NCBI RefSeq assembly: GCF_009914755.1
Contig: NC_060938.1
Direction: 5' to 3' (one strand)
DNA from: the human T2T-CHM13v2.0 reference genome, Homo sapiens
DNA: 64,000 bases
How positions within the stretch are numbered: the first letter of the stretch is position 1; each line of letters starts with the position of its first letter. Below are positions 48,914 to 64,000 of this stretch, one piece after another. The notes under the pieces are model-generated. The model was not told the DNA's origin. It was given only the letters and a program-made list of their open reading frames with translations, and ran no database searches. Made by a program: the position numbers and the translations under genes.

Positions 48914-49548
<635 letters not shown>

Positions 49549-50393
49549 TGAGCTTTTAGATAGCAAAGAATGGAGAAGGATCCAAATCATGGAAAACTAA
49601 GGCCTGAATTCCAGTCAGCCTCATTCCCACTGATACAAGCTTTTCCCTGCCCCTCCCTTCCTTCACCCCCAGTCACCTCAACCACAATGCATTAAAGCTG
49701 CTTGCATCCTACTCTCCTAACATGTGTAGGTCTTTATCACCAGGACAGGGTTCCACAGATAGGAAGCGCCGACCCTTTGTTCTGTGTCTGAGGTGAGCAT
49801 TTGACATTGTTAGAAGTGCTCTCGCATACATGCATCTCATTAGACTCTCACAGGTCTGTAGGGAGCTGTTATTAGGCCCTACATCGGTGAGGACACCGAT
49901 ACTCAGAGCTGTGAATCAGGTTAGAGGTTCAGTAGGGCCAGGAACACTCCTCATGGCAAATGAGGACAGAGAGCTTGTTTAAAGAGGTAACTTTTTCAAA
50001 CAACCATACATCCTAGGCTGTGACCACAGTAGCTCCGGTGGGGACTTTTTTAGTCTTTATGCCTAATTGAGTACAGCTATATTTCTAAACTGGTGTCCTT
50101 TTACGATGGCATCGTCAATAAGCAGCTCTGACAAATGAAGATCACTTGTAATAGTGATAATTAGGGGAATGGCCCCTGAGAAGGAATACGGGTAGTTAGT
50201 AGTAACCATATGTTCCACCCAGGCTTTGGGAGAAGTGTTATAAGGAAGTCAAGATATTGGAGAAGCATCATTTTGCAGAGTCAGTGTAATTGTAGCCTGG
50301 GCTGTGATTTCAGAGAATCAAAGCCTTCCTGCCTAAGAACCACCTGCCTAGTAGTCACTCATCTTCTACACTCGTCTAAAATGTGACAGCCCT

Positions 50394-51262
50394 GCTCTTT
50401 TTGCCTGCTGTCATCCACATAAGATGTAACTTTCTCCTCTTTGCCATCTGCCATGATTGTGAGACCTCCCCAGCCAGATGGAACCAAAGTGGAGTCTCTG
50501 GAACCGCCCAGCAGCAGCCTCATTACTCAGAAGATGCTGACGAAGACCCAGACAGGAAGAAAGGAAGCAAAAGCATCCTGACTGGTACATTAGCAAAGGC
50601 ACATCCCTGGAGAGCAAGGAGAGGGGGAGGGCAGGCAACAGTGCCCATGGCATGCATCTGCAGCTTGTGAGCAATGCATGAAAACAGGAATCAAAAAACA
50701 GCATTGCCTCCAGCATCCATGTGTTTATGGCTCTCATGGGGGGCATGATAGAGGAGGATGGATCAGCACTAGCTCTGCAGGCTGCCTAACCTGGAAGTCA
50801 GTCTCTGCCTTTAGATCTACTCACTTCTTTTGGGAACGGAAATATCCACGTATCCCTTGTCCTACAACCTCAATTAATGTCTTTGCAACAGCCATCTGTT
50901 AAATTCAAGAAGGCCCTGGAACAACTTAATTGGAAAAGTTTCCCTCTTATCCCTTGAAAAACCATAGAAAAGTAATGTCACACGAATGTTGAACTTCTGA
51001 TTTCTACAATTTCAGATACCAGAGTTTATCTGTTACCATGACAACTAAGAGCTTTATAAATGTTTTCTAGGCTCTGCTTGCTATTTTCTGGAACTTATCT
51101 ACATTTCAGTATTTGCTTAATAATTTTGAGCTGACACTAGCAACATAATTGTGTCTGGATTGTGTATTTGTTGTGTGTTGGCGGGGGTGGGTATAATTGA
51201 TGTCTTTGTTTTTCAATATGAGCAATTTTTAATAAACTTTAATATTTAATGTGCAAAAAAAA
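50394..51262 (+). pseudogene. Processed retrocopy of an unidentified THE1-LTR-initiated transcript
   Basis: TSD aaaatgtgacagccct / aaaagttacagccct; AATAAA 51231-51236 then A8 18 nt later; first ~92 nt are THE1 LTR; empty site at 63969-64000. Confidence 0.8.
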
Positions 51263-51689
51263 GTTACAGCCCTTTCCACTTCGCAGACAAAAAGCTTAAA
51301 ATGCCATTTTCTATTGCATGCGTGACTTCCTGAGAGTTGATCTGATGAAAAGAAGCCAGCTGGAGGGTGATTGGGTGATTCTACCCAGTGCAGGTTGGGT
51401 GGATGACAGAGTAGACAGGAGATGTTTGAAATTCTCAAAATGAACTTCATCTATTTTTTTCCAACTTTGTGTTTGGCTCACATAAGATGAAGCATACTTT
51501 TAGTTCTTAGAAACTTTATTCTCTTATGAGAATTATCTTCTAATCAGGGAACCAAATAGTAAAATTGTGCTGAGTGCTTGCATTGGCAGGAAACAGAACT
51601 TTAAGATAAAGGTCAGCTCTCTGGACATTGTCTACATGATGCTTTTCTTTCTTTTCCCTGTGGACACGCAGGTGTCCCTGGTGACTGAA

Positions 51690-52126
51690 ATGGCATCCTC
51701 TCTGAAGATCTGGGGCAGTCCCTTGGCCCTGCTTTGCATTCTTTGCAGGCTACTTGTACACAGCAAGGACGTTTCCTGGAGAGAATTCATGACCCTGCAC
51801 TATTTAGATCCAAGCCAAGATTTTGAAGAGTACAAATGTGATGTCCTCACGAGAGAAAAAGAAGCTCTGAAACGCAAGAGCTCTCATATGTCCATCTATA
51901 GCTTATGGCACAAAATGGAGTGTATATGCATTATTGAAATGGGAATAACCGATATAGATATGCCTATGTATGGGCCCAGGGTGCCCTCAAAGTACTCGAG
52001 TGTCAGTGGCAGAAGTACTGCAATAGCTACACAGAGATCTTCAACTACATTGAATTCCACTGTGGCAAGGATGGGTATGTTGATAGCATAGGAGACCTGA
52101 GGATGGTGGAGCCTATCAGTAACTAG
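51690..52126 (+). pseudogene. EDDM3DP: EDDM3 (epididymal secretory protein E3, RNase A-like) pseudogene with one 1-bp frameshift at ~51937-51939
   Basis: MASSLKIWGSPLALLCILCRL...WREFMTLHYL...YKCDVL; shifted frame continues NRYRYAYVWAQGALKVLECQW...YIEFHCGKDGYVDSIGDLRMVEPISN*; acceptor cgcag|51672. Symbol is from memory. Confidence 0.88.
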
Positions 52127-53218
52127 AAGGTCCATGCACATCCTCAGGGATTGGTATTCAGTGCTTCCCGAGTGGTGGCCCCTGCCTCCATCAATAGCCC
52201 CTGACACTCCCCACTTGCACTTATGCATCCGTGTTTTCCAAAACTTAGAATTATGAAACGCATGATTTCTTGATACCATAACCTCGCCTGTGTTGTTTCT
52301 CTGCCTGGAATACACTTTTGTCTTCATTTACCTAATTTACTCCTACATGTTTGTCAAGATTCAGCTCGTAATGCATCTGATCTTTACTAACCAAGATTTT
52401 TCCTGATATTCACTCTAAACCTACCCAAGGTGGATGATCTTCCTTTCCCTAAATAAATCGTATTATGCCAAAATGTGTGACATTCTACATATGATGTGTG
52501 TAAAGTAAGTATCATGTAATTGGTATGGGTGTGTGAGATCTAGGATATGTTTGCCTGTGACTTATGCTGTGCAAGGTCACATTTTATGTGACTGTGTCTG
52601 TGCATGGGATATGTTTGTGTATATCATGAGGATGTAAATGATTATAGGCTAAGCTGGAGACAAACTGTGATGTAGACACTGATTGTGTTGACAATTTGAT
52701 ATAATCAAAAAGGTCATAATCCAGTTTTAATGATTTTATTAAAGTGAAAAGATGGGAATGGCCACTCTGTGACACACAAACTCCAGAGAAAGTTAAGTTT
52801 TTGCTAATGTAGGAAAAAGACAAAGAAATTCAAAAGGATTACAATATTTTCTATGCCAGGCTGGTTCAAGAGTTACAACAAATTAATTAGTTACAGATTT
52901 GTGCCCAACCTCATGACTTGTTTTCATTTATTCATAGCTGTGCTTCATTTCTGTTCCAATTTTAAAAGAGTGTATTTAACATTCCATCTCAAGACGATGT
53001 GATAGCAATGAAGTCTTTACATCAAAAACAGAAGAGGGGAGTTCATCCATAATGAAGATCAGCAGTGGAGTGGAATGAGTCTTCCCTGGCCCACTTCAGT
53101 CATTTTACATTTCACACAACAATGCAGGTAAGAAAGTGTCTTAATCTCTAATCAGAGAAACCAAGGTACACCTGCCTTGGTTACAGCTGCCTAGTATGTG
53201 ACTCAGGCCCCATCATCA

Positions 53219-62050: not shown

Positions 62051-62653
<603 letters not shown>

Positions 62654-63044
62654 GGTGGCTTTCCTCAGTGAAGTTCCCATGTAACATAGCATAACCCTCC
62701 AGGGACTTCCCCAGAAGTTTGTTAGAATTGAGAGCAGAGCTAAGTCTCTGGTTGTCTCCTGATAGCACCAGATAACCCTTTTCTGGGGTCACCTAGGGTC
62801 TTGCAATCATTTTGTGCCCAGGGCTCAGCCTTTGATGTTTGTAGCCTTTGCTCGAGGCTACTGTTTGAGTGAGCCCAAGTGTTCCAGATGAAACGATACA
62901 GGGACAAGTTCACATAATAAGGCTGTTCCCCATCACCACCTCGGCTACCAATCAGCTGGAGCCCTGCAGCTCCCCCTGCTATTCCTTTCTCCACTGCTGT
63001 AGATTTCCAGGGCTCTGAGAAAAGGAGGAGGACGCAGACTCTGC

Positions 63045-63106
63045 TCTTCAGATCCACATGCTGATCCCCACTACAATCAGTGACCTGAACTCAGAGTCCG
63101 AGTAGG
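63045..63106 (+). other. EDDM3A: Probable non-coding exon 1 of the next EDDM3 gene (coding exon lies beyond the window)
   Basis: ...CTCAGAGTCCGAGTAGG|GTAAGA donor at 63107; paralog of 48853; identity rests on recalled gene order. Confidence 0.6.
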
Positions 63107-64000
63107 GTAAGAAGGGCTCTGCTGAGGTTGCTCGGGGGACAGCCAGGAGCACTGGAAGGAGGCTGATTGAACTTTTAGATAGCAAACAATGGAGAAGGAT
63201 CCAAATCATGGAAAACAAAGGTCTGAATTCTGGTCAGCCTCAGTCCCACTGATACAGGCTTTTCCCTGCCCCTCCCTTCCTTCACCGCCAGTCCTCCTAA
63301 GCACAGTGCATTAAAGCTGCTTGCATCCTACTCTTCTATCTTGTGTAGGCCTTTATCACCAGGACAGGGTTCCACAGATGAGGAACCCTGTGTCTGATGT
63401 GGGCATTTGACATCTTTAGAAGTGCTCTCACATGCTTGCATCTCATTAGACTCTTGCAGGTCTGTAGGGAGCTGTGATTAGGCCTATCTGAGGACACCGA
63501 TACTCAGAGCTATGAATCAGGCTAGAGGTTCAGTAGGGCCAGGAATACTCCTCATGGCAAATGAGGACAGATAGCTGGTAAAGAGATAACTTTTTCAAAC
63601 GACCATACATCCTATGCTGTGACCACAGTAGCTCTGCGGGGGACTGTTTTAGTTTTGGTGCCTGATTGATTACAGCAACAGTTCTAAACTGATGTCCTTT
63701 TATGATGGCATTGTCAATAAGCTCTAACAAATGAAGATCATTTGTAATAGCAGTAATTAGGGAAATGGCCTCTGAGAAGGGATGCCGATAGTTAATAATG
63801 ATCACATGTTTCACCCAGACTTTGGGGAAAGTGTTATAAGGAAGTCAAGGTTGGAAAAACATCATTTTTCAGAGAAGTGCAATTGCAGCCTGGGCTGTGG
63901 TTTCCAGAATCAATGCCTTCTGCCTAGGAACCACCTCCCAAGTAGTTACTCATCTTCTACATTCCCTTAAAATGCAACAATCTTTTCCACTTTGCAGACA

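What the first reader, a model, noticed from the sequence alone, without database searches (positions are those of the whole stretch)
50378..51273. Retrocopy of an unknown THE1-LTR-initiated spliced transcript inside the EDDM3 pseudogene intron
Seen: an ~870-bp insert with a ~15-bp TSD, AATAAA 18 nt before an A-tail, and a clean empty site in the paralog (aaaatgcaacaatcttttccactttgcagaca, 63969-64000). Its first ~92 nt are THE1 LTR sequence, beginning near the LTR transcription start and stopping at ...ccagccagatggaac, just before the MaLR splice donor (GTGAGT) as I recall the consensus; unique sequence follows. Established: MaLR LTRs drive spliced chimeric transcripts in oocytes. Inference: this is a full-length fossil of an ancestral germline LTR-driven RNA. 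It also places a sense poly(A) signal upstream of the EDDM3 coding exon, which could truncate host transcripts.
Basis: partly seen in the sequence, partly recalled or inferred. Interest (0 to 1): 0.75.

Follow-up and report, generated by a model that had tools for sequence, protein, structure and literature searches.

The report
Retrocopy of a THE1-LTR-started spliced RNA
This is an old L1-made DNA copy of a two-exon RNA that began in a THE1-type retroviral LTR and was spliced to an exon on chromosome 9; it is a tidy but ordinary molecular fossil.

Summary
Window 50394-51262 is an insert flanked by a 16-nt target-site duplication (14 of 16 identical). It has AATAAA 18 nt before an 8-A run. EDDM3A and EDDM3B both keep an empty site.

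- **LTR part:** the first 92 nt are a high-copy MaLR/THE1-type LTR piece. It starts about 30 nt after the LTR's TATA-like box and ends at GGAAC, one base before the LTR's GTAAGT donor.
- **Body:** the remaining 769 nt have one other copy in the genome, chr9:102465909-102466659 (minus strand), at 89.9% identity. There the match starts right after a polypyrimidine-AG acceptor. It ends where the retrocopy's A-tail begins.

So the insert is an L1-type processed copy of a two-exon, LTR-initiated, spliced and polyadenylated RNA, roughly 25-55 Myr old.

- The parent body is a single terminal exon, not several blocks.
- No THE1-type LTR lies on the right strand within 280 kb upstream of that exon.
- No LTR-initiated unit is listed near it in published human oocyte data.

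Oocyte expression and truncation of EDDM3DP transcripts remain untested. EDDM3DP also carries a frameshift. This is a new member of a known kind and of modest interest.

The parts
50378..50393 (+). 5' copy of the target-site duplication (AAAATGTGACAGCCCT). It is preceded by tct, which gives a bottom-strand TTTT/AG nick site typical of L1 endonuclease.
   Evidence: Single copy in EDDM3A and EDDM3B.
50394..50485 (+). Exon-1-derived part: 92 nt of a THE1-type MaLR LTR, from about 30 nt downstream of the LTR's TATA-like box to GGAAC(C), where genomic copies continue with T|GTAAGT.
   Evidence: The same donor position is used in the published THE1B-HEY1 RACE clone.
50486..51254 (+). Exon-2-derived body, a copy of the terminal exon at chr9:102465909-102466659 (minus strand). 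Identity is 89.9% and K2P distance 0.109.
51231..51236 (+). AATAAA poly(A) signal, conserved in the chr9 parent exon.
51255..51262 (+). Remnant poly(A) tail (8 A). Its last As overlap the start of the 3' TSD. The parent continues here with non-A sequence.
51258..51273 (+). 3' copy of the target-site duplication (AAAAAGTTACAGCCCT).
63969..63984 (+). Empty (pre-insertion type) site in EDDM3A intron 1.
51671..52463 (+). EDDM3DP coding-exon homologue downstream of the insert (context). Its reading frame is broken by a frameshift relative to the EDDM3A ORF.
   Evidence: hub annotation

Best explanation
This is an L1-mediated processed retrocopy of a two-exon RNA, made in the germline or early embryo of an anthropoid ancestor.

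1. Transcription started at the TATA-directed start site of a THE1-type MaLR LTR.
2. The 92-nt LTR exon was spliced from the LTR's own donor (GGAACT|GTAAGT) to the acceptor of a terminal exon now at chr9:102465909-102466659 (minus strand).
3. The RNA was cleaved and polyadenylated about 18 nt after AATAAA.
4. L1 endonuclease and reverse transcriptase then copied it into the first-intron homologue of the EDDM3DP duplicate, at a TTTT/AG nick site. This made a 16-nt target-site duplication.

Shown here: the insertion hallmarks, the empty sites, the LTR identity of the head, the single chr9 parent exon, and the coincidence of the junction with a donor on one side and an acceptor on the other.

Inferred: that the LTR was the promoter rather than a 5'-truncation point, that splicing was in cis from an LTR on chr9, the germline or embryonic timing, and the age.

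The copy lacks the LTR's U3 promoter part and shows no sign of function. It is most likely inert.
For: - L1 hallmarks: a 16-nt TSD with 14 of 16 identical, sitting exactly at the ends. AATAAA, an 18-nt spacer and an A-run. The target is preceded by tct|aaaa. Both functional paralogues, 2 of 2, have empty sites.
- LTR identity of the head: 40 of 40 scored genome matches are 89-93% identical, mostly over positions 1-90 of 92, out of 2188 first-look candidates. A 25-mer from it has 3466 exact genome hits against 0 for the control.
- Start of the head: in the alignment with 4 full genomic LTR copies, the head starts about 30 nt after a TATAAG box. That box is present in 2 of the 4 copies and decayed in the other 2.
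- End of the head: it stops at GGAAC, directly before T|GTAAGT. That donor is present in 3 of the 4 copies.
- Parent exon: the body has only one other genome copy, searched in both directions. In that chr9 copy the similarity begins immediately after ctttcttctttatgcccatAG. It ends at ...aatgtg, where the retrocopy has its A-tail and the parent reads aacattaactg.
- No LTR abuts the chr9 exon, so the junction is not genomic.
- Literature (passages read): MaLR LTRs carry a start site and a splice donor near their 3' end but no acceptor (PMC5538554). A THE1B LTR initiates and donates a splice site for CSF1R (PMC5134097). THE1 LTRs initiate transcripts in human oocytes (PMC6102241).
- The THE1B-HEY1 5'-RACE clone, read from Dataset S1 of PMC3836709, joins its next exon right after GGAACT. 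This is the same donor position as here.
Against: - No THE1-type LTR lies on the minus strand in the 280 kb upstream of the chr9 exon (102466001-102746000).
- The only minus-strand MaLR LTR there, at chr9:102555718-102556064, is an older type about 78% identical to THE1 copies. It lacks a segment that the head has, and it reads CTGAGT at the donor position. Cis-splicing from an upstream LTR is therefore not demonstrated.
- Base 50485 is C where LTR copies have T, so the junction fits only to within one substitution.
- The published THE1B-HEY1 RACE clone starts upstream of the TATA box. The retrocopy's 5' end could therefore be a 5' truncation that happens to fall at the predicted start site.
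- The TSD end (acagccct) resembles the LTR sequence just upstream of the head, which blurs the 5' boundary by a few bases.
- The human oocyte LIT list has no chr9 entry between 89.2 and 99.86 Mb in hg19. My conversion of the T2T position to about 93 Mb in hg19 is recalled, not computed.
- The LTR subfamily name comes from recollection and from likeness to the published clone. No repeat library was available.
Confidence: 0.85

Rival explanations
1. Chimeric retrocopy made by template switching of the L1 reverse transcriptase. The enzyme copied the chr9 RNA and then jumped onto an unrelated THE1 LTR transcript, so the two parts were never one RNA.
For: No source LTR lies within 280 kb upstream of the chr9 exon. 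THE1 transcripts are abundant in germline and embryo (passages). That L1 makes chimeric retrocopies is recalled, not read here.
Against: The switch would have to fall exactly at the 5' end of an exon that begins at a splice acceptor, and exactly at the LTR's splice donor. An RNA whose 5' end is an internal exon boundary is not expected unless it is spliced. The same donor is used by a documented spliced THE1B transcript.
Confidence: 0.05
2. The RNA was spliced as described, but the LTR was not its promoter. The retrocopy is a 5'-truncated copy of a longer RNA that began upstream of, or earlier within, the LTR.
For: L1-made copies are often 5' truncated (recalled). The THE1B-HEY1 RACE clone begins upstream of the TATA box. 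The 5' boundary is blurred by microhomology between the TSD and the LTR.
Against: The 5' end falls about 30 nt after the TATA-like box, the position expected for initiation. Of roughly 860 possible truncation points, this one would be a coincidence. MaLR LTRs are reported to have no splice acceptor, so exonisation of only this LTR part is unlikely.
Confidence: 0.08
3. Two independent events. A THE1 LTR fragment already lay at the site, or arrived separately, and a retrocopy of the chr9 exon landed beside it. Alternatively, this was LTR-mediated retroposition as described by Tan et al. 2016.
For: LTR fragments are common: the 25-mer from the head has 3466 exact genome matches. The LTR-mediated retroposition paper (PMC5131818) was seen only in a search listing.
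Against: The TSD brackets head and body together. EDDM3A and EDDM3B lack both parts at the homologous site. There is no second LTR, no 4-6-bp TSD and no internal retroviral sequence. Instead there is a poly(A) tail and a 16-nt TSD.
Confidence: 0.02

Closest known systems
L1-mediated processed pseudogenes and retrocopies of spliced polyadenylated RNAs
   Same: It has a 16-nt TSD, a poly(A) tail after AATAAA, a TTTT/A-type nick site, no intron at the exon junction, and empty sites in the paralogues.
   Different: The parent appears to be a non-coding or at least unclassified RNA. Its 61-codon open frame has no Pfam or PDB match. Its first exon is LTR-derived, and that exon's genomic source was not located.
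THE1/MaLR LTR-initiated chimeric transcripts, such as THE1B-CSF1R, THE1B-HEY1 and oocyte LTR-initiated transcription units (LITs)
   Same: The LTR supplies the first exon, and the LTR donor at GGAACT|GT is joined to a downstream non-LTR exon.
   Different: Here the transcript is known only from its DNA fossil. No LTR was found upstream of the exon within 280 kb, and no oocyte LIT is listed near the locus.
Pseudogene recycling by ERVL/MaLR LTRs in mouse oocytes (Franke et al. 2017)
   Same: It links MaLR LTR promoters, splicing from the LTR donor, and retrocopies (passages).
   Different: In that work LTRs drive transcription of pseudogenes that already exist. Here the LTR-driven RNA itself was retrocopied, so the order of events is reversed.

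Membership tests
L1-mediated processed retrocopy | Target-site duplication of about 7-20 bp at both ends | tested here: met
   16 nt, 14 of 16 identical, at 50378-50393 and 51258-51273
L1-mediated processed retrocopy | 3' poly(A) tail that follows a poly(A) signal and is absent from the parent locus | tested here: met
   AATAAA at 51231-51236 and an A-run at 51255-51262. The parent reads aacattaactg at that point.
L1-mediated processed retrocopy | Insertion at a TTTT/A-type endonuclease site | tested here: met
   The top strand reads tct|aaaa, which is TTTT/AG on the bottom strand. The consensus motif is recalled.
L1-mediated processed retrocopy | Intron removed relative to the parent gene | tested here: inconclusive
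   The junction coincides with an LTR donor and the chr9 acceptor, and the two parts are not adjacent at chr9. The genomic exon 1 was not located.
L1-mediated processed retrocopy | Empty site in homologous or orthologous sequence | tested here: met
   EDDM3A and EDDM3B are both empty. Orthologous primate sites could not be tested.
THE1/MaLR LTR-initiated spliced transcript | The first exon is LTR sequence starting at the LTR start site | tested here: met
   The head starts about 30 nt after the TATAAG box seen in 2 of 4 aligned copies. That this is the true start site is inferred.
THE1/MaLR LTR-initiated spliced transcript | Use of the LTR's own splice donor near its 3' end | tested here: met
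   The head ends at GGAAC(C). Copies continue T|GTAAGT in 3 of 4. The published THE1B-HEY1 clone uses the same position.
THE1/MaLR LTR-initiated spliced transcript | A sense-oriented LTR upstream of the downstream exon in the genome | tested here: not met
   None within 280 kb upstream on the minus strand of chr9. Farther upstream could not be fetched.
THE1/MaLR LTR-initiated spliced transcript | Assignment of the LTR to a THE1 subfamily by a repeat library | not testable with these tools
   No Dfam or RepeatMasker was available. The name rests on recollection and on likeness to the THE1B-HEY1 clone.
LTR-mediated retroposition | Retrocopy embedded between two LTRs with a short (4-6 bp) TSD and no poly(A)-primed end | tested here: not met
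   There is a single 92-nt LTR piece, a 16-nt TSD and a poly(A) tail.

The most novel reading that the evidence does not exclude
The retrocopy is the only surviving record of an ancestral THE1-initiated germline transcription unit at 9q22. Its promoter LTR either lay more than 280 kb upstream of the exon it spliced to, or has since been lost from the human locus. It would then be a dated example, about 25-55 Myr old, of LTR-promoter birth and turnover. It would also be a proof of principle that retrocopies with LTR heads can be mined to reconstruct ancient LTR promoter and donor use.
Probability: 0.45. Interest if true: 0.4.

Novelty: new member of a known kind. Interest (0 to 1): 0.3.

Why it matters
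The insert gives direct sequence evidence that a THE1-type LTR acted as a start site and splice donor in heritable cells of an early anthropoid. It preserves that RNA's ends to the base. It also shows that the present human locus no longer has an obvious promoter LTR nearby. Beyond that it is an inert processed copy in a pseudogene's intron homologue. The mechanisms involved (LTR-initiated chimeric RNAs and L1 retroposition) are both well described.

Tried and rejected
- **Source LTR, by BLAST.** The 92-nt head and two full genomic LTR copies were run against 280 kb upstream of the chr9 exon. There was no THE1-type hit on the minus strand. One older minus-strand MaLR LTR was examined and rejected.
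- **Source LTR, by genome-wide patterns.** The 25-mer and 28-mer searches gave 3466 and 1449 hits, listed only from chromosome 1 onward, so they were of no use for chr9. Variant-specific 24-mers gave 1 hit (the insert itself) and 8 hits, none on chr9. One of the 40 scored head matches lies on chr9 on the minus strand at 121.8 Mb. That is 19 Mb away and is expected by chance.
- **Rfam.** A scan of 50300-51350 gave 0 matches at E up to 1.
- **Protein searches.** The 61-codon frame that is open from the acceptor in the parent is also kept in the retrocopy. It gave 0 PDB and 0 Pfam matches. The retrocopy frame gave one Pfam match far below the cut-off (E 0.081, 13.2 bits against 26.6). About a quarter of the residues differ between the two frames by eye. 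I treat the frame as chance.
- **Published human oocyte LIT table** (PMC6102241 Supplementary Data 3; parts 1 and 10 of 10 read). There is no chr9 entry between 89.2 and 99.86 Mb in hg19.
- **Literature on EDDM3DP.** One paper mentions it, and it is unrelated (listing only). I found no paper describing this insert in searches.

Full report
**1. What is in the sequence**

Window 50394-51262 on the + strand is an insert bracketed by a 16-nt direct repeat. The copies are at 50378-50393 (AAAATGTGACAGCCCT) and 51258-51273 (AAAAAGTTACAGCCCT), with 14 of 16 bases identical. This is the longest of the 3 direct-repeat families found in 50340-51310.

AATAAA lies at 51231-51236. It is followed by 18 nt and then an 8-A run at 51255-51262. 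The target is preceded by tct, so the bottom strand reads TTTT/AG, close to the L1 endonuclease preference. That preference is recalled, not from a call.

The homologous place in EDDM3A intron 1 (63969 onward) has a single copy of the target, followed directly by ttccactttgcagaca. BLAST puts the two flanks of the insert 9 nt apart in EDDM3A. EDDM3B, fetched as L028, is also empty and reads aaaatctgacaaccct|ttccacttca.

The flanks align to EDDM3A from its exon 1 through intron 1. Window 48500-48924 matches 62753-63177, and 49541-50383 matches 63160-63974, at about 86%. The insert therefore sits in the intron-1 homologue of the EDDM3DP duplicate, 398 bp upstream of the RefSeq pseudogene span, in the sense orientation.

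**2. The head is an LTR piece bounded by the start site and the donor**

The first 92 nt were searched against the window's own genome. All 40 scored matches, out of 2188 first-look candidates, were 89-93% identical, mostly over positions 1-90. A 25-mer from the head has 3466 exact matches against 0 for the reversed control.

I fetched four of the best copies with flanks and aligned them. They are complete LTRs of about 350 nt. The retrocopy's LTR part starts about 30 nt downstream of a TATAAG box. The box is present in 2 of the 4 copies and decayed to TAAAAA or TAAGAA in the other 2.

The LTR part ends at GGAAC. The copies continue there with T|GTAAGT in 3 of 4; the fourth has a 3-nt deletion. 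The retrocopy has C at 50485 where the copies have T.

The name 'THE1-type' rests on my recollection of the family and on likeness by eye to the published THE1B-HEY1 clone. No repeat library was available.

**3. The body has one parent, and it is a terminal exon**

The 769-nt body has exactly one other match in the genome: chr9:102465910-102466656 on the minus strand. The reverse search with the chr9 exon again gave only those two places.

At chr9 the similarity begins immediately after ctttcttctttatgcccatAG, a polypyrimidine tract plus AG. It ends at ...atttaatgtg, where the retrocopy carries its A-run and the parent continues aacattaactg. AATAAA is conserved in both. The chr9 copy has no TSD, no A-tail and no LTR next to it. 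It is therefore the source, not a sister copy.

A global alignment gives 735 aligned sites with 42 transitions and 32 transversions. Identity is 89.9%, K2P distance is 0.109, and there are 7 gaps. The 5' third is more diverged (85.7%) than the 3' two thirds (92.2%).

Neutral rates of about 1-2.2 x 10^-9 per site per year (recalled) put the insertion roughly 25-55 Myr ago. That fits the age given for THE1B elements, which are shared by Old and New World monkeys and were dated at 40-75 Myr for one copy (passages).

**4. The mechanism**

The LTR-to-body junction coincides, to within one substitution, with a canonical donor on the LTR side and a canonical acceptor on the chr9 side. The two parts are not adjacent anywhere in the genome. 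The simplest reading is a spliced two-exon RNA: a 92-nt LTR exon plus a 751-nt terminal exon. It was polyadenylated and then retrocopied by L1.

Published work supports each step:
- MaLR LTRs carry a start site and a donor near their 3' end, but no acceptor (PMC5538554, passages).
- A THE1B LTR starts and donates the first splice of CSF1R transcripts (PMC5134097, passages).
- THE1 LTRs initiate transcripts in human oocytes (PMC6102241, passages).
- The THE1B-HEY1 5'-RACE clone in Dataset S1 of PMC3836709 joins its next exon directly after GGAACT, the same donor position.

Because the copy is inherited, the RNA must have been present in germline or early embryonic cells with active L1. Which cell type is not known.

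**5. What does not fit, or is open**

- I fetched 280 kb upstream of the chr9 exon (102466001-102746000). No THE1-type LTR lies there on the minus strand.
- The one minus-strand MaLR LTR in that span, at 102555718-102556064, is an older type about 78% identical to THE1 copies. It lacks a segment present in the head and reads CTGAGT at the donor position. It is not the source.
- The source LTR may lie farther away. Oocyte LITs of 455 kb and 687 kb are listed in PMC6102241 Supplementary Data 3. It may instead have been lost or rearranged. Farther upstream could not be fetched.
- That table has no chr9 entry between 89.2 and 99.86 Mb in hg19. My estimate of about 93 Mb in hg19 for the exon is a recalled offset. 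The gap in the table is wide enough to tolerate several Mb of error.
- The HEY1 RACE clone starts upstream of the TATA box. 'Full-length' therefore remains an inference. The likeness of the TSD end to the LTR sequence just upstream of the head also blurs the 5' boundary by a few bases.

**6. Rivals**

- Template switching by the L1 enzyme would need the jump to fall exactly on an acceptor-bounded exon end and on the LTR donor. I give it 0.05.
- A 5'-truncated copy of an RNA that began farther upstream is possible. I give it 0.08.
- Two independent insertions, or LTR-mediated retroposition (PMC5131818, listing only), are excluded for three reasons. One TSD brackets both parts, both paralogues lack both parts, and the hallmarks are of the L1 type.

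**7. Function**

- There was no Rfam match.
- A 61-codon frame is open from the acceptor to a shared stop in both parent and retrocopy. It has no PDB or Pfam match. The two versions differ at many residues. I treat it as chance.
- The insert lacks the LTR's upstream promoter part.
- Its sense poly(A) signal could in principle end transcripts from an EDDM3DP promoter, but this is untested. The pseudogene's coding exon also carries a frameshift relative to the 147-residue EDDM3A ORF.

**8. Verdict**

The parent is a single exon, and its LTR promoter was not located. This is a new member of two well-known kinds, LTR-initiated chimeric RNA and L1 processed retrocopy, and it is a neat dated fossil of modest interest. 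I found no paper describing it in searches. Supplements in PDF form, and the large spreadsheets of PMC3836709, were not read. They could list a transcript at the chr9 locus.

Noticed in passing
window 48925-49540: The EDDM3DP intron homologue carries an extra stretch of about 615 bp that is absent from the matching place in EDDM3A. The stretch matches, in reverse orientation, the masked repeat at 62061-62653 (77-83% identity). It is probably an Alu-type insertion or a pair of them.
   Followed up: no
window 51504-52126: The EDDM3DP coding-exon homologue reads MASSLKIWG... in one frame and then continues the EDDM3A-like sequence (...YAYVWAQGALKVLEC...EPISN) in another frame. There is therefore a frameshift near the middle of the ORF compared with the intact 147-residue EDDM3A ORF in L027.
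   Followed up: partly
chr9:102555718-102556064 (within L011-L012), minus strand: An older, diverged MaLR LTR lies 89 kb upstream of the parent exon in the same orientation. It reads CTGAGT where THE1-type copies have the GTAAGT donor, and it is not the source of the head.
   Followed up: yes
window 50486-50670 and L002 2063-2245 (minus strand): A reading frame is open from the splice acceptor to the same stop (...CICSL*) in both the parent exon and the retrocopy, despite a 6-nt in-frame indel. It has no Pfam or PDB match.
   Followed up: partly
window 50734-50762: The retrocopy has about 27 extra bases here relative to the chr9 exon. Divergence is also uneven: 85.7% identity in the 5' third against 92.2% in the 3' two thirds.
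   Followed up: no
L028 about 1320-1345: EDDM3B has a short local duplication or insertion (aagtaattggagaagcaggcaagaagtaattgc) upstream of the empty site. This may be why BLAST did not align its left flank to EDDM3DP.
   Followed up: no
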